DNA of 61,581 nt, filler included, from Sluysia triapertura (taxonomy: Eukaryota), in assembly GCA_046118255.1 (NCBI GenBank). It is 4 parts of 4 records of this genome, joined end to end, with 100 filler letters (N's around TTAATTAATTAA, not from the genome) between each part and the next. Parts side by side here need not be neighbours in the genome. Positions count along the whole stretch, not along the records: positions 46,435 to 61,581 come from JBJNIA010237775.1; 3 more parts are not named here. One strand, written 5' to 3'. This document shows positions 13,420-59,200 of the stretch, in pieces (the first letter of the stretch is position 1; each line of letters opens with the position of its first letter). The notes under the pieces were generated by a model. That model saw only the letters and a list, made by a program, of their open reading frames with translations, ran no database searches and had not been told where the DNA came from. A program made the position numbers and the translations under genes.

Positions 13420-14410
13420 TGAGTATACCTCCACTGACTGAAAACTTTGGGGGCTTCCAATTTTTAATTTCTTCAATTATTTCCGGTCTTCCGAATAATT
13501 TCAACGATTCAAATTGACATATTTGTAATCGATGATGTTGAATTCATTTTTTAATTTCCCTTGATAATGAAGTCATTTTGTAAATTCTTTAATGTCACAT
13601 TCGAATCACGTTTATCCAATAAATAACGCATTATAAATAAGTCATTATTATTTAACTTAAAACGTTTGTGAATAATTTCTACTTCGTTTTCATTATCAAT
13701 AATTAATCGTAAAAAATTCGCACTTGAAGCATCAATTTTCTGCAAGTTTTCATAACTCACAAAATCGTTTTTTCTTAGTTTCAAAATTATTTTTTACTAA
13801 GCCGGTATAAAGAAATAAATTTACTTCAAACATTCGCTTTAATATATCACACGCATGTCTACCTTTAATAACTTTACTCAATTCTGCCCAAATACGTTCA
13901 CCAATAATATTTTTCTGACTATCAACATTTTGTTTGATATCAGATAAAATTTCTTGGACGTGTGAATCGGATTGTTCCGAAATTATCCCAAAAAGTCTAA
14001 AATATCGTAAAATTCTTAAATAATCTTCTTGAATTCGATTGACATTGTTTCCAACAAAACAGATAATATTATTTTCTAAATCTTTAATGCCACCAAGGTC
14101 ATCATAAACAAAATCATTTTCATCAAAGAATAAATAGTTAATAGTTAAATCACGTCTTTCGGCATCTATTTTCCAATCTTTTATAAATTGAACTTGTGCT
14201 CCTCGGCCATTAGTTACAACTTCAAATAGTAAATTATTTATTTCAAAATTTTCTTTATCATTAATTCTTTGGGTTATTGTATCATGTGATTCATCATTTA
14301 ACATATATTGAAATCTTAATTTTGAAAAATGATCTCTAACATTTATTAATTCTGTACGAGCTATTAATTGCCATTCAATGTTTTTTAACTTAAATATCGC
14401 TGAAGTAATT
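13420..14410 (-). pseudogene. TRNT1: Intronless, frameshifted CCA tRNA nucleotidyltransferase (TRNT1-like) copy; cargo of cassette A
   Basis: HDTITQRINDKENFEI, DWKIDAERRDLTIN, RIQEDYLRILRYFR, GERIWAEL and C-terminal EIKNWKPPKFSVSG match class II CCA-adding enzymes. No introns; frameshifts near 13770 and 13550; the N-terminal GGxVRD/DxD motif is not recognisable. Confidence 0.9.
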
Positions 14411-14588
14411 TTTACAATAATGAAAATTCAATAATGACAATAAGTAACTGATTGTAAAATAACAATAATCTAGTAAATATTTTTAGCTTTCTTTTTTAAT
14501 CACTCTAGTAAATTTTATTATAATGTACTATCGATAACTTGCCAATAAGAAACAACTTTTGTTAATTAATCTTCTTCATATTGTAAGT

Positions 14589-14853
14589 GGCTGCCCAATC
14601 AAAACACAAAAAGCAAACAATATTCATAATTTTAATTGGGCAGTCATCAAAATACTCAGTAATACTGATAGGCAGTACATGTAATGAGCTGTCATCAGTC
14701 GACAGTAAAGCAACGTCAAATGATTTAAAATGCCTGGCGACTGATGGCAGGTTAAATAATATGTAAATTTTTGTGTATGTTGTAAATACAACCACTATCA
14801 GTAGTGACAATGAATTGTAATTACGAATTAATGACGTCACCACTGGCAGTGGT
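14589..14853. repeat. Array of three 16-18-bp inverted repeats (cassette A leader)
   Basis: Stems at 14791-14808/14836-14853, 14689-14705/14734-14750 and 14589-14604/14630-14645, with 25-28-nt spacers. Confidence 0.85.
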
Positions 14854-14956
14854 AGTTACAGAATTAATAAATTAGTAAAATTGTTAATAAAAATAATGTA
14901 GAATTAAAATGATGATTGTAATAATAATAACAATAATGTTATTGTTGTTGTTGTTA

Positions 14957-14998
<42 letters not shown>

Positions 14999-15249
14999 TA
15001 AAATGCATAAACCTTTTAAAATATAAAGGACATGATCTTCCTAATATTTAACTTTCTTATTCTCGACATATTTGAAGTTCTTAACATGGTTGAGTATTAA
15101 AGAATTTAGGTTACCTTCACGGCTTATGTTATACTTCTAAGTCTTATGAATAAAATGTTTTTATGAAGTTTTTAATTATAAGCTGTTAATTCTGAAAGTG
15201 CATGTGACTCCGATGAGGTTAGACTATGAATTTGAGATGTTTTCAATTA

Positions 15250-15650
15250 TTTTGAAGGTGTAGTTGTAATTCTGATGTTGTAAAATAATGAATGGAATGT
15301 TTTAACTAGGTTTTAATGTGCATTAATATGTTTTAAATGAATTTTTAAATATACTTTGATGTTTTGAATAAAAGTAATGTTTCGATGTTAGAAGATTGTG
15401 AGTTGAACGTGTATTGAAAAGAGAATAGTTTAGTGGATCTGAAGGAGATAAATTATAACCCAGGTTTGGTACATTCTAAAAAGGTAGTTGCGCAATGTTG
15501 AAAATTATGATTATGATTACGTTGATATGAGACTATGTTTAAGAATGTTTTTAATGAATTTTTAAAATGTACATTGTAGATTCTGAAAGTAAATGTGGTT
15601 TTATGTGATGGTAGAATAAAATTTGTAAGAGTTACAGGTTGGCCACTACA
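15250..15650 (-). repeat. Upstream block shared by cassettes A and B
   Basis: Exact inverted matches 15328-15349 to 53280-53301 (22 nt) and 15429-15443 to 53183-53197 (15 nt), with collinear similarity between and beyond them. Confidence 0.8.
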
Positions 15651-20366: not shown

Positions 20367-20409
<43 letters not shown>

Positions 20410-23400
20410 TAACTTTACTATTTTACTATCAATAGTTATAGTTTATCATTTAAGTGCCGGAAATTTTATGGCTTAATTTAAACGGTTATATACCCGCATT
20501 TAGAATTAATAATTTATTAATTAAATAAATTAGTATTATAATTAATTATAATATTAGTATTAATAATAATAATAATGGTAACGGTAATTATAATCAATAT
20601 AAATGATAATAATAATTAATAATAATTATAGTGATAAATAAAATGATAATAATAATATTTACTACAAAGTAAGTACTCAAAAGCGCTTAAAATAAATTAT
20701 CCACACAATATTTTTGAAACAGAAAGAACTTTGCCTTTTTCTTAAATATTTCGTAATATTCCAATAATTTAACATTCTCTGGTAGATTGTCAATATTCAT
20801 TATTATTTTCAAGAATTATTTAGGACTTCCATAATAGATTTATAAATTATTAATATGATTTTGAATTATCTTGTTGCTTTTAGTGCGGACCAGTAATTCT
20901 TTAAGATAAGATATTTTCTTCTTGCTTGGAAAATCTATTTATTATTAATTATAATTTTTGCACTTTTCTGAATGGAATCAAGTATAATATGCCGTTACGT
21001 TCTATGTTATTAGTTTTTTTGCTGTGATTTTGTCGTATTATTTTGTTAGTGTTTTTAATGTCTGAGGTCAGACATTTTCTTCGGGGATGAGATACTTTGG
21101 GATTACTAAGTTAGTGAATACAAAATAAGTTAGAAGATTAGAGAATTTAAAATATATGAGAAAAAGTGATATAAAATATCTGAAATATAATAATATAAGC
21201 ATAATTAAATTTTACTAGAGGAAGAATGATGAAGAAGAAAATGTTTTTAGTTATTTTGAAATCAGAGAATATCTTGGAGTTCCAAAGATAAAGATAACTT
21301 TGAACTTCTCAACTTTGGGATCATTTGAGACCTTTCTGATCTTCAGGAACCTTTGAAGACCTTCAAGTGACCTCTTAAAATGTTCAAGAATTAAAATCAT
21401 CGTTTATAATATAAAGGAAGTAGAAAAAGGAATCAGAGTGGTGAAGGTGAAACGATCGAGAGCCCCTTTAAGAACTTTATAGCATAGTAAGCATAAAATA
21501 AAATAAGTTAAAATAAATAAATAATTAAAATCTTAATTAACTTAAGAAAATTTGCGTTTGTGTGAATAACATTTGAATGGGGAATATTACATTAAAATTG
21601 TAACTGTGCATGCCTTTGTTTCAAAGAGATCTTCCAATGGAGATAAGGTTTAACGGAGCTCATGTAAGCAAAACTTCCCTATTGAGTAAAGTCGAATTTT
21701 AAAAAATGTTGAATTTTTCATATTTAGAATGATGAAAAAATAATGAATTGAATATGAAATGATTGCTATGAAAGAGGAGAATCTGAAAATGGGGTTGCTA
21801 TGTTTGTGAAATGGTTTGTTTGGGAATGAAAGCCTTAAACATTTCCAATTAGAAAGTTGATTATGAGGAATTGAAAATTAATTAAATTGCAACAGATAAA
21901 GTTAAATTCATCATTTTTAAGTATGTCATTAATAATAACAAATGCTATTTTAATGTAATAAGTGATTCATGGAATAAACAGATCGTGTAAAGAAAAATAA
22001 GAGTGATTGTTAATGGAATTTTTATGATACGCTTGACAGGTTATACCATGTAAATGTCAAAAGCATTATGATCGGTTTAATTTTTAAAGGAAGTTTTAAT
22101 GATTTATGTAAGAGTAATTCTTGATTGTGAATTTGGGAATGATTGAACGGCACAATAGTGTGAAAAGGAATACTTAAAAAATTTATAACATAACGCAAAA
22201 TGATGAAAATGATTGAAAAGAAAATGCATGCTTGGGTAATATTTTTAATCTTATTTTTATTTAATTTTTTAAATATTTGAATTTGACTAGTTTTTTATAT
22301 TATTTTGGGAATTCCCCTTTTGATATGAATTTAGATAAGTTTTATATATTGTTTTATAAGTGCCCGTTTGAAGTGAGATTTCATTATATAATTTAGAATT
22401 GATAATTTTGGGAATTTACTTTGCGTTTTAACTAGATTATGTTGCATAAAACCTGATTTGAAGATTAAGTTACATGAAATTGCTTATTTATAGTTAAAAA
22501 TTAATTTTTATTTGATAATTACTAAAAAATTATATTTTGGATAATATCTTTTTGTAGACTAAGTTACCTTTGTGATTATTTAAAATATATTGAAGTGTTT
22601 GTTATTTTAATTTTATTATTTGATTACTAGATTATTATTTTATTAATAGAAAATAATTTGTTAATGAGACAAGGGTTTAAGAATTACAATTACTATTTAT
22701 AATATTTTAATATAAAGCCCAATAATTTATTTATTTATTTCTATTTATGTTAGATTTGGAAATTTATATTTTGCATTTGATTCAAAAAGTAATATTAATT
22801 TAATTGAATTAAAATTAATATTAATTGAATAATTTTTTATGTAGATTGTTACAATATTTAACATGTTCTTTCTCCATTGATGATTTGATTATAAATGGCA
22901 TGATTTAAGAATAAATCAGTTACCAGAAGTTGCCATAAAAATGTTTCAACAGGAAAGACAAATATTGCATAGTTAGACTAATAGCTTACAAATATATACA
23001 CAAGAACAGGCATCAATTCATCAAGAGAGAAACATAAATAAAAAGTGATACAAGGTGACAACGATTCTAAAACAACAATCTTAACGCTATTAAATGACAA
23101 TATTAAATTTTGTTTGTGAAACTATACGATGTTATAAAAATTGATTTTGTGTTTTATATATTGTTTGATGATTTGATATTTTGTGTAATGTGATGATGTT
23201 TGTTTAAGATTTTGTATATAAGGAATGTGTTATTTTGTGTTAATATTTGCTTGCGACTATGTTTACAATTAGAGTGTTTTATCCCTGAGTTCACTACAGT
23301 TGCATTATTCAATACATTTACCAAATTCATAAACAGTTATAAATATTATAACTAAAATCATAATGGTAAATACAATAGGACTCAACAGAGAAACAATTTA

Positions 23401-24064: not shown

Positions 24065-27000
24065 GTTAGAAATTTGATAAAGCATTAAATTTATTGCTCG
24101 TTAATTAAAGATTACGTTTAAACGATTATATGTAATTATTAGTTAATTAACTATGAATCATCTATAGACAAAGTGGTGCGGAGAAATTTAAATTAATTAT
24201 TTGACGAATGAGATTTTTCATTTCATATTATATATAAATATTACGCTAAACTTACTGCAGATTATCTAATGAAATGCGTAATTTAATTAATTACTTAGGT
24301 GCAGCTTTTAACCATTTAATAATGCGTTAATGTTTCGCCACAAAAGCTGTATCAATGAGTTATTATTTAATATATAAAAAGATTAAAGTAAATTCTTTAA
24401 CCAATGTATGTACGATCTGTTATCAATGAAGAGAAAATTAAATTCGAATTTTGGAAGATCTTAAAATATTTTACAATGATTTATAAAATTCGGTATAAAA
24501 AATGCTTAAAAACTACAATAAAACAAATATAGGAAGAAAACTTTGAATCGTAGATGTGAAACTAAAACTACGGAATATGGAATGTTATGTGGATTCAATA
24601 ATGAACATGGAAGAAAATATTAATTATATTTCGAAAAGTGTACATAAAGTGAAGAAAGTATTTCAATAAAGATAGGTCAAAACTAATTGTTCATTCATAG
24701 ATAACTAATTACATAGTTTGATTTACCATTTCCATACAGAAACATGCGAAAGTTACAAATATTATTAAATCTAACCTTAAATAATTAAATGGTTAACAGT
24801 AAAAGCAAGAGTAGAATTCAACGTCCTGATGGTAATCTATAAATGCTTACTATGTAGAAGTTATAGGTTTCTCATAAAAATAATAAAACGCAGAAATAGA
24901 AATGAATATAGAAATTTATATATATAGAAATTTATATGAAATACATGATAATGATATAAATAATATGTATGTACCGTTTATATTTCAAAATCCACAGCCA
25001 GTCACTTTATTTATAAACTTTACGTTAACTATTACGTCAGAGACGTAATGTAAATTATTAATAATTTGATTTGTTTAACAGTTTATCCACTAGTAAAATT
25101 AAGCTAGCCTTCTTACGGTTGATTGATATTTAACTATATTACTTCGAAAATAAAACCCACTTAATTAACATTTAGCTATATATAAAATTACTTCAAAAAC
25201 TAATTGGTACAATTCACAAAAATATAATAATAGACAGTTTAAGTGGTACTTAAGGGATAAATTTAAAATGATTTTGACCTAGCCTTTTTACGGTTTAGGA
25301 AATTTAATTAAAGTTACGCGCATTTTAGTTTTTTTCTACGCTTACGGTTAGAAAATTAAAACTTATGCAAATAATCTTACTTGTTTCTTACAACAGCTTC
25401 GTTTGACATCGATGATTAAATTAGATTCTTAATATTAATATAGCTTGAAAATTTCACTTCTATTTATTATGAAATTTTAGTCGCCATATTAATTGTTTAT
25501 TTTTTAAACAAAATATTTTGAATAAACAAAACTTAAAATTTTATTTATTTATTATTTAAAGTTTTACTTATTTATTTTTAAAATTTTTTTAATGTTTTAT
25601 TTGATATAATAAATAAAAAGATTTTAATAAATAATTAACAGATAAATATTTTTACAAATAATTATTAATTCTTTACAAATGTTGAATTTATGAATTAATT
25701 CAGGCTTAATATAATTCAATAATAATAAAATTCAATAATTAAATTTCTTCTTCAAACGATTACGAATACTTTCTTATGTCAATAAATTAATATTTAATTA
25801 ATAAATGTAAATAATTAGGCTTTCAATACAAATTCTGCAAAACATTAATATTCCTCAATGTCTTTAAGGCATTTTATAATAGATTCTCAACTTTAGTCAA
25901 TACACACTTTAGTCCTCAATAACACTTTAAATATCTTCGCTTATATAAATTATTTTTAATCAGCAACAACCTAAACTCTATCGTTTTACTAATTAATGTT
26001 TGCTCATTCTATCTAGAAGTCTGAGTTCGGATACTCGTTCCGATGACCGGGAATGTTTTATTTGCGAGGATACTCGACGTTGACTTTGATTGTTATATAA
26101 ATAAATATTATTTTGTTCTATTCTGTTTTATTTTTGCTTTGGGGTTCTCTCTTTCTACTTAACAATTAATTAATAAAGCAATAAATTCACAAAAAATTTT
26201 ATTTAACAAATATTTAAACACTTAATAGCAAAATATAAAATGGCAAATATTTTAATAATGATGAATTTTAATGTTAATAAAATTCATTATTTTAATTTTT
26301 CAGACAAAAAAAGCAATAATAATTACCATTACGTTCAACGCTTGATCCAATTAATAAAGTTCAGAAGACTCGAACGAATTCCAAAATTTGTGTGAAATAC
26401 TGTGTCAAATTCTATATCAAATTCTGTGCCAAGTATCTGTCAACTTCTGTAAAAAAACTTGTATGGAATTCCTTATACTACTGTCTGAAAATTCTACGCA
26501 CTATTATGTGGGTTGAAAATCAAATCGTCTATTTATACTATTTTTTATATGACGATAATTTATTAAATTCTACATGCAGAAGTAATAAAATTAGTAATGA
26601 TAATATACAATGCATCATTTAATAGTAATAATTTACAAGTAGTAGCTAATAATAATACACATAGTAATTATTGTTCTTTGTCTTAAATAATGATACTAAA
26701 TAATTTATAAGTAATAAAACATAATAATTATTCTTTTCTGTCTGAAATTTTTGTAATAAGTAATTTATAAATAATAAATATTAATGAGTGACACATACTT
26801 TTCATTGTTGATAAATTTTAATTTTATAGTATTTATATTAAATCTCACTTTAATATGGATTTTCTCGATTAGAATGCTTTTAAATTTGATATAACATTAT
26901 CCTCTCAATCTTTAATTTAAGTTAATTTTGATCGAGAATAATGTTATTAATTTTTAATTGTATAATAGTTTTATTAAATCTCAATTTAATATAATTTTAA

Positions 27001-39017: not shown

Positions 39018-39177
39018 TGTTGGGGTAAAAGGCCTAAAATGTGCCAAGTAGTATAATTGAATACATTGAAAGTGAATTTGTTAGGCGGGGCTGATAGCTC
39101 AGTGGTAGAGCATTCGTACTGCGCAGACGATGGTCCCGGGTTCGATCCCCGGTCAGTCCATTTTACGAAGTCTAACA
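39018..39177 (+). mobile_element. Solo LTR-like element containing a tRNA-like gene (Helenus-like), copy 1
   Basis: TGTTGG...CTAACA termini, 4-bp TSD TTTT (39014-17 and 39178-81), internal tRNA-like sequence; close inverted copy at 43012-43170. Confidence 0.8.
39088..39160 (+). tRNA. tRNA-like (Cys-related) sequence inside the element, probably non-decoding
   Basis: Acceptor stem GGGCTGA/TCAGTCC, A box TAGCTCAGTGG, B box GGTTCGATCC, then TTTT. The anticodon arm is irregular. Confidence 0.55.
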
Positions 39178-53200: not shown

Positions 53201-56200
53201 ATTTTTATATCTCAAAACACTTAAGTTCACAAGTTTTCAACATCCCAAACGTACCTTCAGTTAAAACCATCAATTTAACTTTAAAAATTCATTTAAAACA
53301 TTTCATTCATTATCCTTTGACATTAGAATCACAATTACATCTCAAATTATCAAATTTACGTCTTAAAATTTAATTCAAAATGTTTCAAGTTTACAATCAT
53401 TAACACTCAATCTCTAATACCATTGAAGACATTAAATTAATACTCTGACATTGCAAGCAAATTACTACTTCTTTAACATCTTCAATTACATATTACTTTC
53501 TTCAATCATTCTTCCATCAATTCTCGCTACATTATATATCTCAGTAATTATTAAATAAAGTTTCTGTTAAAAATTTTAATATGTCCAGAACAAGAAAGAT
53601 TGCGTTTTTGTTATTTTTAAAAGATGTGTCTTTATATTATTATCATTTGAACAATTTTTATTATCATCACCATTTTGATTATTATTGTTTCGGACACTTG
53701 ATTATTTTAATCATTATTATTTGGTCTCATTATTGCAATATTAAACACATTCTAGTAATTGCCAGCGGTTGACAGTTAATAAACAAAGTAGAATCAATAG
53801 TACATACTGTCAACCACTGACAGCTGGTTATCGTAATTACTAATTCTGTGCTTCCATTGGTCGTCCAACAAGAATTAACATTGCTGTCTTGTCTTACTTT
53901 CTGGTTAAACAACCAATGATGGTTGCACAGTTAACATCATAGCAGTGTTGCGGATTAATATTCATTAGGGAGCTATTTTTAGAATTATGACAGCCAACAT
54001 TTTGTAAAAATTTTTATTGATTAAACTTAACATATTTAGAATTTAATTTTATGATCAGATGTTGAAAAATAAAAATGAACTTAGAACTACAGTAGTAACT
54101 GATGAAATCATTGATGTAGTTCAAGAATAACGTAAAAAATTAAAGAATTCTATTGTTATTAAAAGAGAAGTGATGTAGATGGGTTATTAATAGAAAATTT
54201 TGAATTTATTGAGCAAGAATCGGCAAAATTATGACAAATTCGTGATCTAAAACCTTTTATAGAAAAAGTTCGTTTTCTTAAATTTTATATTGGACGTAAT
54301 TATGTTGAAATTAAAAACAAAAATAAATTATACCGTGGTTATGTAAAATTATTAAATCATGCTATAAAACGTCGATATGTGTTTAACTGGACTCCATTAC
54401 AACAAAATTTTTGCGTGAAAGATGAAAATGAATTAACAAATATTCTTTACATGGGTGATGAGCATGACGTAAAATTTGTTGAAGAATTATTAAATAATTA
54501 CGATGGTAAATTGTACGGAAACTTTCCTTTTAATTTTGCTGAAAGATTATTTAGTGATTTATTGAAGAATCTTAATGATAATCACCATTGGAAAAATCAT
54601 TAAATTGTAAAGTATTAGATGAAAGTTCTACTGCATGTCCAACTATAATACATAAAATTGTTGCAGAGGTGGTTATGACAAATTAATAAATCGTAATTTG
54701 GATATTTTGAATTCTAATGAACACGTTGCAGACAAAGTTACACCGAATTTTGATAATGAGTCAGAAATTTAAAGATAACATAAAAGTAACAAATTCCAAA
54801 GTAAGTAGTAAAACATTAGGGCATAGCCGTGGTGAAATAATTCATACATTCCGATCATTAATCTGTCGTCGCTGCTTTAAGTACGATTATATTATGCATC
54901 CATACAGATGATCAATTTCAATGTATAATAAGCCATCCTATTCTAATACAGTTATAGTCATCATTAATCGACAAAAGCCGGACTTCGACACGACAATGTA
55001 TTAATACATAACGAAAGTGAAATTAGTAACTGTGAACTGAATTTAAATAATATGTCCAAGATCGTAAATATTCTTGGTTGGATGTCAGACTTGACAGATT
55101 ACCATCGGAGGATCCATGAACTGGTATTAATCTTGATGGCAGTTCCCGCTTACAATAGCAACGATTATGATTCAAAAGTAATTCTGATTTTTAATTCTGT
55201 CTACATGTTTACTACTATAACTATTCATTTATATGCTTTATTTTTCTTTAAGAGTTTAGAAAAACTGTTGCCGAGACATGCTCAGAAAATGATTAACGTG
55301 GAAAAGAGTTTAAATATAAATGTCAGAAATTTTTTAAATATAAATAAAATATATGTTAATTTTCTTTGTTGCTTGGTTGATTATATTACAGAGTTAAATT
55401 TAATTAAACATATTAAAGATTTTATAAACTTTGAACTTTTTATAATATTAAAAATAAATTATGTGAAAAAATTAGTTAACAAATATAGATGAAATTTAAA
55501 ATTAAAAATTTTAAATAGTAAATTTCAGTTAATACCACAACATTTTTAGAGTTTCAGAAATTGAAATATTCCGAATTAAAATCAATATTTCACAGTGAAA
55601 GCTGTTACTTTCTAATTTTATGGAATCATGTAGTGTGCACATCACTTGATGTTTTTAGAAGAACCACATATTCTGGCCATTGAGAAATAGCGAACTGAAA
55701 CTAGAAAGCATCTCCTATTCTTATCTTATTGATAATGCTTCAATAAGAATAAATAGATCGAAGAATTAGAACTAACTTCCGTAATTTTCCGTTGATCGAA
55801 CATGTTGAAACTTATGAATTAATGATTATTGTCAAAAAATATTTCTCAAATCATCCGAAAGACCTCATTTCTAGAAGCAGGGAAGACCTGGCAAGCAGGT
55901 GGAGGAAGTTATGTTTTGCTAAATTATTGTGAAATAGGGTATTAGACCTACTACTTAATGAACATACTGTAAAAGGTGTCAGAACTGAGAAGTTTACTAA
56001 GATTGACTGTGAAAATATCGATTGATTAATTTGCACGTTTTAATTTGAACACTTACTCATTTTCCAAATGTTTATCGCAGGCTTGCGACGTGGAGATTGA
56101 AGATGTTCTTGATTCAACATTGAATGTGATACCTTTTGAATTTTAATAAAGTAAGAAATATTGATATAATAAAATTTTATTTCTTTGTTATTTCATTTAT

Positions 56201-59200
56201 TCAGAGCCGTGTTAAATACCTTGAACGCTTCGTTTGGTGCTGGATGTTCGGGGATTCTTGTGACGTGAGTATTTTATTATTTTTATTGAATGCCTTAAAA
56301 ATAGAATAATAAAATTTTAATGAGGAATTTAATAAGGAATTATTGTTANNNNNNNNNNNNNNNNNNNNNNNNNNNNNNNNNNNNNNNNNNNNNNNNNNNN
56401 NNNNNNNNNNNNNNNNNNNNNNNNNNNNNNNNNNNNNNNNNNNNNNNNNNNNNNNNNNNNNNNNNNNNNNNNNNNNNNNNNNNNNNNNNNNNNNNNNNNN
56501 NNNNATAATGATAAACATTAGAGGCAATACACATTAATTTACGAAGATAAAATGTGAATTAACACTTGTCTTGGATTCACACAATTATAAATATTATTCT
56601 CAAAGGGTTCGCCTATAATCCCACGATTGTTATCTTATGGAAGACACGGTCATAGGATTTAGTTCAAATACTTCTTCAGTGAGAGTATTGTTTATTAATT
56701 TCAATCCTTAATTTATCTTATCGTATTTTCTTTTATACAATTGATTTCATTAATTCTAAACAAATAATTCTTCTTAACAATTGACGAATAATTAGCAACA
56801 GGCAAGTTATTTAACAGATAAACACAAAAATTATTATGAATCGATTAACAAAATAAGATTTAAATTTAATCAGTTTACTTTAATAATTCTTTGAAAGGTA
56901 GTTAGCTATTTTCTATGTCGATAAATTTTCATTTAAAAGCGAAGTTAATCAATAAAAGTTTAATAAACACAACAATCATATTATTTGCAAAAATAATAAT
57001 TAATAAAATGGATACTAAGGTGTGGTGGCCCGGCCCACACCTATCTACGTATCATATAAATCATAACGATCATCTACACAAACCTCATCACAAAAAATAC
57101 ATTATAACAAATCTTATCCACATCACTCGCAACATCACACCACTCATCCTTACAAAATTTCAAACCTCTAATAAAAATTATTTTATTAAACTCAGTGTTC
57201 ATTGTCATTTTGTCATCACTATGACACACTATCCTTTTTATTGTGTCTCCCAATTTTTCATTTTTATCTTTTTACGATTTATTCTTGTTAAAGTGCAATT
57301 AGTCATATTACTATTGTTAAAGATCGTATTCAATCTCCTTATTGAATGTTTTATTTAATTTCAATTATTGAATAGTTCCCGCTTTAAAATTTGCAGCAGC
57401 TTCAGAAAGAAAAATGGATAAATGAATTGAAGAAGTTAAATTATCAATGATTTTATCTAAAAATAAATAACTCAATCGAATCAACACGTCAAGTAGTAAT
57501 TATAGTGACGTCGAAATTTGAACAATTAGTACTAAAACAAGATGAGATTGTGAAAATAATTGAAGAACAGAAACTGATACCATCAAACGATATAATACGT
57601 TTTATTAGAATGGAACTTCAAAAGTCTTTAGTTATTGTTAAAGAGTTTTAAAATTTGTACATAGTAGAAAAACATTCTTTGAAATTATCCCCAATATAGA
57701 ACAGAAATCTTTTAATTGGAAATGCCGAAAATAGTAAATAAATTCAATGTATATGTCAGTTTAATTCTTTTAATCCACAGCTAGACATAAATTCGAACTT
57801 TAACTTAAATGGAGATATGATCGTCAATGTCATTAATCTTACTATTATTTCTTTAGTGATAGAATATAATATTTCAAAATTCAGTTATTTGGATTTGAAT
57901 TTTTTGGACATTTCAGTTTATTTTATTAAGGTTAAACACTAAAATAATTACAACGAAATATTACTTTACAAATAATTTACTTTTAGTGCTACCAATAATA
58001 TTTTATTGACAAGATTTCATTAGTTATTATTTTGGCAAATAAAAATTGTCGTTTAAATATTAAGTTGATAAAATGCAAAAAAAAATTTGAAATAATTTAA
58101 AAATATTAAACTGCTGCTGATGATGAAGATATAATTCCAAATTTGAAGTAAAACATTGAAAAATTCGTACGAAAAGTTTTGAAAGATTGAAATGACTGAA
58201 ACAGTAACATATAATCCTAGAATTCACGAAACATGGAATTTTACATCGGTTGATTCTGGTTCAAGTGAACATCAGTTTTTTACGAATGCTACTTCGAGTA
58301 AATTTAGCGGATTTTCAAATGATATAAGTAGTACTTTCGATGAAATTAATCAACAGACAAAAATTCTCAACGATTTTCATCAGATTTTAATCGTACTTCA
58401 TTGCTTCTGAAAATTCGTACAGACACGCCTATATTTAAAATACCATTTAAGGAAAATGATACGCATATTTTAGATGTAAGTGGTAATCAACTTTTACATG
58501 AAATCGAAATATTATCAAAAGGTAGACATCCATACATTGCTCGGTGTTACCGAACTTGGATTGAATTTCAATCAGTTGTAAAACAATAAAAAATCCTTTT
58601 GGGTATTCTATTTATGATCACATTAAAAACTGTTTAAAATAAAGCTTCACTTGTGAAATTAAAGAAGTATTTGTAATAAAAATGATTTCTAATATTCTGT
58701 CAGCTATATATTATTTATTTGATAATGCTATTAATGTTAAAAACATTTGGGTACAAACATATATAATTGTGAATTCATGTCTAAGATTAGAAATAACAAT
58801 TTTGTTATTTTTGTTTTATATAATTTTGAAAATGCACTAACCAATTTTGAAGACAAACAATGTTATATTAAATAAGGATATATTTGAATTTATATTTCCA
58901 CAAAAAGTCAGTTTTAATTTTAATTTAAGTCTCGAAGTTTTAATTCAAAATGTTATATCTCAAAGTACAAGGACCACTTTGAAAGCTGTAAAGCTTATTA
59001 ATCTTAACTCTATTTTAAGTCTTAAAGTTTTAATTTAAATTTTAAAGTTTTCGATTTTAAATATATTTTAATCTTTAAGGTTTATGAAGGCCTTTGTATC
59101 GATTTCAGATTAAAGTATACTGATAAATTGAGTAGTATACTGATCTTAAAATTTTATAAAGTTAAATAAGTTAATTCGAATAATATTAATAGCTTTAGAG

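What the first reader, a model, noticed from the sequence alone, without database searches (positions are those of the whole stretch)
54970..55492. Unnamed ~150-190-aa domain conserved at protein level across three or four loci
Seen, A versus B: SELTNNFTWMSHLTIHKHRIQHLISSL / SKIVNILGWMSDLTDYHRRIHELVLIL and ESLLLKHAKEMIYKKRISKLIVNKFLNLNIIYIN / EKLLPRHAQKMINVEKSLNINVRNFLNINKIYVN. Identity is roughly 30% by eye over about 75 ungapped residues, with synonymous codon differences (tta/ctg, ctt/ttg, gcc/gct), which points to selection on the protein. Copy C (48612-49010) matches in four collinear blocks. I cannot assign the domain to a known family.
Basis: seen in the sequence. Interest (0 to 1): 0.82.

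Follow-up and report, generated by a model that had tools for sequence, protein, structure and literature searches.

The report
Shared tail of gene-capturing cassettes
In an AT-rich animal genome, the unnamed "domain" is the shared rear part of repeated DNA cassettes that carry intron-free pieces of different host genes (one is the front of the Polycomb silencing enzyme); it is likely the decaying end of a zinc-finger gene spread by a mobile element rather than a new conserved protein fold.

Summary
The A-B similarity is real: 26 of 77 residues are identical without a gap, and 0 of 2000 shuffles reach the score. It is not a free-standing conserved domain. B's ORF includes a 75-nt GT-AG segment that A lacks exactly, most likely an intron. 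The first exon (W-M-S...H-x-R-I) shows only weak, non-significant purifying selection. The 77-codon last exon stays free of stops in both copies, yet dN/dS is about 1. In A the tail follows an Unkempt-type CCCH finger. Both loci share one layout: a G-poor high-copy leader, hairpins with CCAAT boxes, intronless host cargo (CCA-adding enzyme in A, N-terminal E(z) in B), then the tail. B and C are multicopy units in contigs of one run. C is a probable distant member; its protein match is marginal. The fourth locus (D) shares only non-coding DNA. No homologue turned up in Pfam, PDB or 1.84 billion proteins, and there is no match to hAT or LINE tails. No terminal repeat, target-site duplication or mobilising enzyme was found. 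The scan already noted this cassette family on many other pieces of this genome. New here are the tail's exon anatomy, the intron missing from A, and the amplified E(z) cargo.

The parts
53090..53409 (+). B leader: G-poor (3% G) high-copy non-coding module with a splice-acceptor-like site near 53179-53197
   Evidence: 67% to 15214-15550, z 11.9; contig depth 11,106 vs about 41 in the flanks; composition
53767..53918 (+). B twin inverted repeats (53767-53815; 53855-53918, arms carry ATTGG and CCAAT); likely promoter module
   Evidence: the promoter role is inferred
54059..54980 (+). B cargo: intronless, broken N-terminal part of E(z)/EZH2 up to the MCSS region; no SET domain follows. Ends are approximate.
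   Evidence: EZH2 99-178 at 54346-54573, E 2.8e-14; EZH2 273-299 at 54825-54905; Pfam Ezh2_MCSS E 1.4e-9
55025..55177 (+). B tail exon 1 (S-N-C...W-M-S-D-L...H-R-R-I...P); no intact CCCH finger
55178..55252 (+). 75-nt phase-0 GT-AG segment, stop-free, absent from A: probable intron
   Evidence: best deletion length is 75 of 31 tested, and the GT-AG cut is one of 4 tied best positions among 2015; background GT..AG rate 123 of 59,899
55253..55492 (+). B tail last exon, AT-rich, open frame, dN/dS about 1 against A
15214..15550 (-). A leader, homologous to the B leader
14591..14997 (-). A (TAA)n at 14939-14997 and three inverted repeats (14845-14799, 14746-14693, 14643-14591, the last with CCAAT/ATTGG arms)
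13430..14427 (-). A cargo: intronless broken copy of the tRNA CCA-adding enzyme (3' end approximate, read by eye)
   Evidence: 172 residues collinear with human TRNT1 60-231, E 2.7e-42; Pfam PolyA_pol; the last piece has no significant hit
13256..13321 (-). C-x9-C-x6-C-x3-H finger of Unkempt type
   Evidence: only such motif in six frames; Pfam zf-CCCH_UNK E 0.0019, 18.5 bits, below the cut-off of 31.1
12876..13249 (-). A tail: collinear with spliced B (209 of 351 nt identical, one 1-nt gap between about 13181 and 13152), no intron
46436..46980 (+). C leader (high-copy, G-poor, cut by an assembly gap), inverted repeat 46728-46785, (TTA)n 46917-46980
   Evidence: depth 10,223; weak match to A and B leaders, 2 and 14 of 300 shuffles
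47250..48490 (+). C cargo: broken, unidentified coding sequence (longest frame 47562-48080)
   Evidence: no hit; weak unnamed PHROG rows at E 0.01 or worse
48454..49095 (+). C ORF, probable distant tail; holds a GT-AG segment at 48499-48613 whose first 45 nt resemble B's intron
   Evidence: best of 766 tiles, score 44.5 against next best 43.5; protein match marginal
21734..21951 (-). D: non-coding segment shared with the DNA right after A's stop (12656-12858); no tail ORF detected
   Evidence: 71% over 219 nt, E 1e-27; z 22

Best explanation
The domain is likely the C-terminal tail of a lineage-specific Unkempt-type zinc-finger gene that forms the fixed 3' part of a multicopy, probably mobile, non-autonomous cassette. 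SHOWN: A and B share leader, hairpin module and tail in the same order and orientation. They carry different intronless host-gene pieces in sense between these parts. The B and C units are multicopy. A lacks exactly a 75-nt segment that fits GT-AG ends. The last exon is stop-free in both copies, but its amino acids are no better conserved than its DNA. INFERRED: the leader/CCAAT module drives a transcript through cargo, finger and tail. Cargo is exchanged by template switching between this transcript and host mRNA during reverse transcription by an enzyme supplied in trans; one such RNA passage removed A's intron. Intron-retaining copies such as the B subfamily were then amplified at the DNA level. 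Selection on the last exon acts mainly on an open frame or on composition. The short W-M-S...H-x-R-I exon was probably a structural helix next to the finger.
For: Shared leader 67% (z 11.9). Hairpins with CCAAT/ATTGG in A and B. Cargo is E(z) and CCA enzyme with no room for introns. Spliced B and A are collinear with one 1-nt gap. Deletion length 75 fits best, with GT-AG among the best cuts. Finger in A. Contig depth is 275-870 over B and 231-508 over C, against 31-42 in the adjacent bins, with 11-21 different contigs at single sites; leaders exceed 10,000. Neutral drift predicts 4.7-6.2 stops and none in only 0.2-0.7% of runs. LTR-mediated template switching that joins several genes is published (PMC5131818).
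Against: No terminal inverted repeat, direct terminal repeat or target-site duplication was found. No empty site and no mobilising enzyme were seen. The B subfamily keeps its intron (12 contigs differ inside it), which ordinary retrotransposition would not do. B has no intact finger, so the finger as a fixed part rests on one copy here plus unchecked notes of the scan. Parent genes were not available, so 'intronless' means only that no intron is present. A's copy number was not measured. Contig depth is not a copy number, and only one run holds the DNA. AT bias can saturate synonymous sites, so dN/dS near 1 may understate protein constraint.
Confidence: 0.55

Rival explanations
1. DNA-level capture: a Helitron/Helentron-like or Pack-type element picked up a finger gene and already processed retrocopies, and amplified them.
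For: A very high-copy 5' module with lower-copy cargo behind it, and intron retention in B. Bat Helitrons carry promoters and nested retrogenes (PMC4224331 passages). Animal Pack-TIRs exist (PMC8277862).
Against: No TIR pair was found. No poly(A) or duplication at the cargo ends is visible in the sequence. Cargo is in sense and at the same slot in A and B. A lost an intron of the cassette's own tail.
Confidence: 0.22
2. No mobile element: an expanded lineage-specific finger gene family, duplicated with its promoter, repeatedly received retrocopy insertions (jingwei-like chimeras; label taken from scan note e1-9012287 and from recall).
For: No element ends were found. The tail has an intron and an open frame like an ordinary gene. 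A-B homology and B's multicopy depth both end close to the stop codon (estimate near 55560).
Against: The leader is at more than 10,000 depth. The units are dispersed and have sharp depth edges against low-copy flanks. All copies here are broken.
Confidence: 0.15
3. The tail is an eroded transposon protein end (hAT dimerisation domain or LINE ORF2 C-terminus).
For: A W-to-P spacing in B exon 1 and a CAGTGG start near 53079 recall hAT features (recalled, from no call).
Against: No such Pfam family at E up to 10 for any exon. No match to two L2-like C-termini in the window (170-992 of 1000 shuffles; they match each other with 0 of 1000). No partner for the CAGTGG end.
Confidence: 0.05
4. A new, folded 150-190-aa domain conserved by protein-level selection.
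For: Gap-free 62% DNA identity and an open frame over 77 codons, while exon-1 synonymous sites are near saturation.
Against: dN/dS about 1. 25 residues come from a probable intron. The model is two long helices with pTM 0.34. C is marginal.
Confidence: 0.12

Closest known systems
LTR-mediated chimeric retrocopies (Tan et al. 2016, PMC5131818; abstract and passages seen)
   Same: Intronless host sequence in sense inside a repeat, several genes joined, further copying afterwards.
   Different: No LTR, gag or pol pieces flank the cargo here. The constant 3' partner is a finger gene tail with an intron.
Helibat Helitrons with captured promoters and nested retrogenes (PMC4224331; passages seen)
   Same: High-copy 5' part, promoter-like module placed before processed genes, DNA-level amplification.
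   Different: No Helitron ends or empty sites shown. No poly(A) or duplication around the cargo. Constant coding tail.
Pack-TIRs / Pack-MULEs (PMC8277862; passages seen)
   Same: Multicopy units holding host gene pieces.
   Different: No terminal inverted repeats found. Cargo is about 1 kb of processed coding sequence, not short genomic filler (median 224 bp there).
Penelope-mediated gene dispersal (PMC3846280; passages seen)
   Same: Retro-type spread that can keep introns, which would fit the B subfamily.
   Different: No pLTR pair or 8-bp duplication found, and no hammerhead ribozyme in Rfam.
Unkempt CCCH finger (Pfam PF25427)
   Same: C-x9-C-x6-C-x3-H finger in A with a weak profile hit.
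   Different: Single finger, below the Pfam cut-off, followed by an unrelated tail; absent in B.
TART-A capture of nxf2 (PMC7785250; abstract seen)
   Same: A mobile element holding part of a host silencing gene.
   Different: Here the captured gene is E(z). No small-RNA or expression data exist.

Membership tests
Unkempt-type CCCH finger (PF25427) | C-x9-C-x6-C-x3-H spacing | tested here: met
   A 13321-13256 only; B lacks it
Unkempt-type CCCH finger (PF25427) | Pfam gathering score 31.1 | tested here: not met
   18.5 bits, E 0.0019
Non-LTR ORF2 C-terminus (L2-like) | Similarity to LINE C-terminal motifs, RT upstream | tested here: not met
   the upstream coding DNA is E(z) or CCA enzyme. Dfam and Repbase are not available here.
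hAT transposon | C-terminal dimerisation domain | tested here: not met
   no Pfam hit at E up to 10 for 7 pieces; exons were scanned apart and HMMER filters drop weak hits
hAT / Pack-TIR | Terminal inverted repeats and target-site duplication | tested here: not met
   old ends could be eroded
LTR-mediated retrocopy | Intronless host cargo in sense | tested here: met
   parent gene structure unknown
LTR-mediated retrocopy | Flanking LTR-element pieces or direct repeats | tested here: not met
   no 5'/3' module similarity among 10 modules compared
LTR-mediated retrocopy | Microhomology at fusion points | not testable with these tools
   no parent genes and no genome
Helitron/Helentron | Characteristic ends and empty sites | tested here: inconclusive
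   ends not resolved: B depth edges near 53080 and about 55560; no empty site available
Penelope-like | pLTRs, hammerhead ribozyme | tested here: not met
   Rfam gave 3 matches: 2 tRNA-like and 1 snoRNA at E 0.68
Spliceosomal intron (55178-55252) | GT-AG ends and exact absence from a sister copy | tested here: met
   cut position tied with 3 non-canonical ones
Spliceosomal intron (55178-55252) | Spliced out in RNA | not testable with these tools
   no RNA holder listed

The most novel reading that the evidence does not exclude
A selfish cassette family fuses captured host proteins to an RNA-binding finger and a tail kept only to be translatable. Its amplified E(z) subfamily makes a SET-less Polycomb decoy, or small RNAs against E(z), and so weakens the host's silencing of repeats.
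Probability: 0.08. Interest if true: 0.88.

Novelty: new variant of a known kind. Interest (0 to 1): 0.5.

Why it matters
Gene capture by mobile DNA is known, but a cassette with a fixed promoter-like head, a fixed intron-bearing coding tail and exchangeable processed cargo did not turn up in my seven literature searches. The intron present in B and missing in A points to both RNA- and DNA-level steps in one family, which narrows the mechanism. An amplified, SET-less E(z) fragment would offer a testable case of a repeat acting against Polycomb silencing. As a new protein domain the finding is weak.

Tried and rejected
Searches for relatives of the tail gave nothing: Pfam, PHROGs (63), PDB with a profile (32), word-based protein search with B (31 candidates, 0 pass) and with A's finger exon among longer proteins (19 candidates, 0 pass), 1.84 billion representatives (0 at E 0.001), metagenome contigs (220 pattern matches, 0 confirmed), ESM Atlas (unnamed clusters at 0.90 or less with low recognition). 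The profile A3 used had only 4 rows and placed C in a register that later looked wrong, so these blanks are weaker than they seem. The structure model is two long helices, pTM 0.34; Foldseek gave 0 matches at E 0.001, which is uninformative. The opposite strand and other frames have 3-14 stops. hAT and LINE tails were rejected. The leader is not similar to the 3' modules. The acceptor-motif pattern was made after seeing the sites, and 6 matches are not above chance (27 of 100 shuffles). A count of indels in leader versus tail depended on gap costs and was dropped. The exon-1 block was off by one codon and was redone. C's cargo stayed unidentified. No RNA holder was listed. No genome is held. 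Supplements of the papers were not read.

Full report
Setting. The window is an AT-rich (20-31% GC in most bins) animal scaffold with intron-containing lectin and ammonium-transporter genes. No genome is held. Earlier scan notes call the organism a flatworm; I did not test this.

Observation. B is a stop-free frame at 54968-55492 (+). A lies on the minus strand in two frames, 13348-13133 and 13193-12876. B against A's second frame scores 115, reached by 0 of 2000 shuffles, with 26 of 77 identical residues and no gap. A's first frame against B's first 70 residues scores 63, reached by 0 of 3000. Only one of six frames is open in this block in either copy. So A and B are homologous coding sequence.

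Anatomy of the tail. Removing 55178-55252 from B makes it collinear with A over 351 nt, with 209 identities and a single 1-nt gap in A. Among 2015 trial deletions of 60-90 nt, length 75 scores best. The cut with GT-AG ends is one of four tied best positions, while GT..AG at that distance occurs at 123 of 59,899 places. The segment is in phase 0 and happens to be stop-free (1072 of 5000 shuffles are too), so 25 residues of the 'domain' are probably intron. In A the tail follows the window's only C-x9-C-x6-C-x3-H motif, which hits Pfam zf-CCCH_UNK at E 0.0019, below the cut-off. B keeps only S-N-C at the matching place.

Selection. Exon 1 (29 codons): position identities 0.55/0.69/0.38, dN 0.55, dS 2.30. 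A codon model on its first 23 codons gives omega 0.43, not different from 1 (p 0.18-0.25). Last exon (77 codons): 0.61/0.65/0.61, dN 0.52, dS 0.54; 7 of 26 identical residues differ synonymously; column shuffles give 26.1 identities. Omega is 1.7-4.5, not different from 1. GC falls from about 42% to 8-18% along the tail. Yet neutral drift over the A-B distance predicts 4.7-6.2 stops, and none in only 0.2-0.7% of 1500 runs per setting. The open frame therefore looks maintained while residue identity is not detectably selected. One caveat works against this reading: strong AT bias can saturate synonymous sites, and 62% gap-free identity is itself a constraint.

Context. Upstream of B lies the N-terminal part of E(z): EZH2 99-178 at 54346-54573 and 273-299 at 54825-54905. 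These lie 160 codons apart for 174 residues, so there is no intron; the copy has stops and frame breaks and no SET domain. Upstream of A lies a CCA-adding enzyme copy, collinear with TRNT1 60-231. Further upstream both loci have inverted repeats with CCAAT/ATTGG arms and a shared G-poor leader (15214-15550 vs 53090-53409, 67%; z 11.9).

Copy state. One public run holds the stretch. Its contigs, laid at 80% likeness on 46500-56340, give depth 11,106 on B's leader, 371-869 across hairpins, E(z) and exon 1, and 275 in the bin with the stop, against 40.5 and 42 in the flanking bins. C gives 10,223 on its leader and 231-508 to 49131, then 31. Other bins between the two units range from 25 to 210, with one at 895. 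Single sites differ in 11-18 contigs across E(z) (4 at two sites near its start), 21 in exon 1, 12 inside the intron and 62-63 in the leaders. Depth is not a copy number, but B and C are clearly repeated as units. The contigs laid over the stop at 54232-54234 read a sense codon there (16 and 15 contigs differ at two of its letters). Whether any copy has an intact E(z)-tail frame is unknown. Only 15 of 66 joints were shown, so intron-less B copies are neither shown nor excluded. A's copy state was not measured.

C and D. C has a high-copy G-poor leader, a hairpin and (TTA)n. Its leader matches A's and B's weakly (2 and 14 of 300 shuffles). B's intron finds its best match among 766 tiles at C 48499, though by one point only. 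C's ORF is the best non-self hit after A/B among 1235 frames. However, two different registers compete, the intron-anchored one is not significant (499 and 546 of 3000), and an ungapped A+B profile does not rank C in its top 10. C is a probable distant member. D shares 200 nt of non-coding DNA with A's 3' flank and has no detectable tail.

Identity of the tail. It has no relative in Pfam, PHROGs, PDB, the word-indexed protein set, 1.84 billion representatives or metagenome contigs. The profile was shallow and had C mis-registered. A recalled likeness to the hAT dimerisation motif was not borne out, nor one to L2-like ORF2 ends in the window. The model is uninformative.

Mechanism. The layout leader - hairpins/CCAAT - processed cargo - finger - tail, with one copy lacking the tail's intron, fits best with cargo exchange by template switching during reverse transcription, followed by intron-keeping amplification (0.55). 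Such switching is described for LTR elements (PMC5131818, abstract and passages). Helitron or Pack-type capture of ready-made retrocopies (PMC4224331 and PMC8277862, passages) gets 0.22, an expanded gene family receiving retrocopies 0.15, a true folded domain 0.12 (partly compatible with the others), and a transposon protein end 0.05. No ends, duplications or enzyme were found. Penelope elements can spread intron-containing genes (PMC3846280, passages), but no pLTR or ribozyme was seen. A review of giant elements, including planarian Burro, has no mention of CCCH (PMC6431247, passages). TART-A/nxf2 (PMC7785250, abstract) is the precedent for capture of a silencing gene.

Earlier scan notes. 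Many unchecked notes on other pieces of this genome describe the same cassette: leader, hairpins, cargo, Unkempt-type finger and an H-x-R-I tail. They changed my reading of the finger from second cargo to fixed part. A look-up by B's sequence found nothing, and none of the eight notes shown for Polycomb words names E(z) (17 fit).

Verdict. This is a real homologous tail of an unclassified gene-carrying repeat family, not a demonstrated new domain. Interest 0.5; new variant of a known kind.

Noticed in passing
window 41026-44390 (+): Three or more tandem C-type lectin repeats with introns.
   Followed up: no
window 39018-39177 and 43012-43170: Two 94% identical tRNA-derived 160-nt repeats in opposite orientation, SINE-like.
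   Followed up: partly
window 6593-7380, 20369-21057, 24575-25002, 3720-4047: Decayed LINE-like 3' fragments; two C-terminal pieces match each other, 0 of 1000 shuffles. The L2 label is recalled.
   Followed up: partly
window 45084-46335 (+): Broken frames that by eye resemble a gypsy integrase end followed by an env-like start, just upstream of the gap before C's leader; no Pfam hit.
   Followed up: no
window 50265-50576 (+): Exon of an ammonium transporter, Pfam E 3.9e-17.
   Followed up: no
window 1591-12363 (-): Large low-complexity exons (628 aa at 7376-9262) of an unidentified gene on the same strand just downstream of cassette A.
   Followed up: no
window 49461-49789: Another repeat, contig depth 895.
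   Followed up: no
window 46820 and 53895: One contig joins C's leader region to B's hairpin region with 36 letters between, a hint of head exchange between subfamilies; one contig only.
   Followed up: no
window 53179-53197, 15429-15447, 46486-46504: A splice-acceptor-like word sits in all three leaders; depth near 53182 reaches 41,000. Not above chance as a loose pattern.
   Followed up: partly
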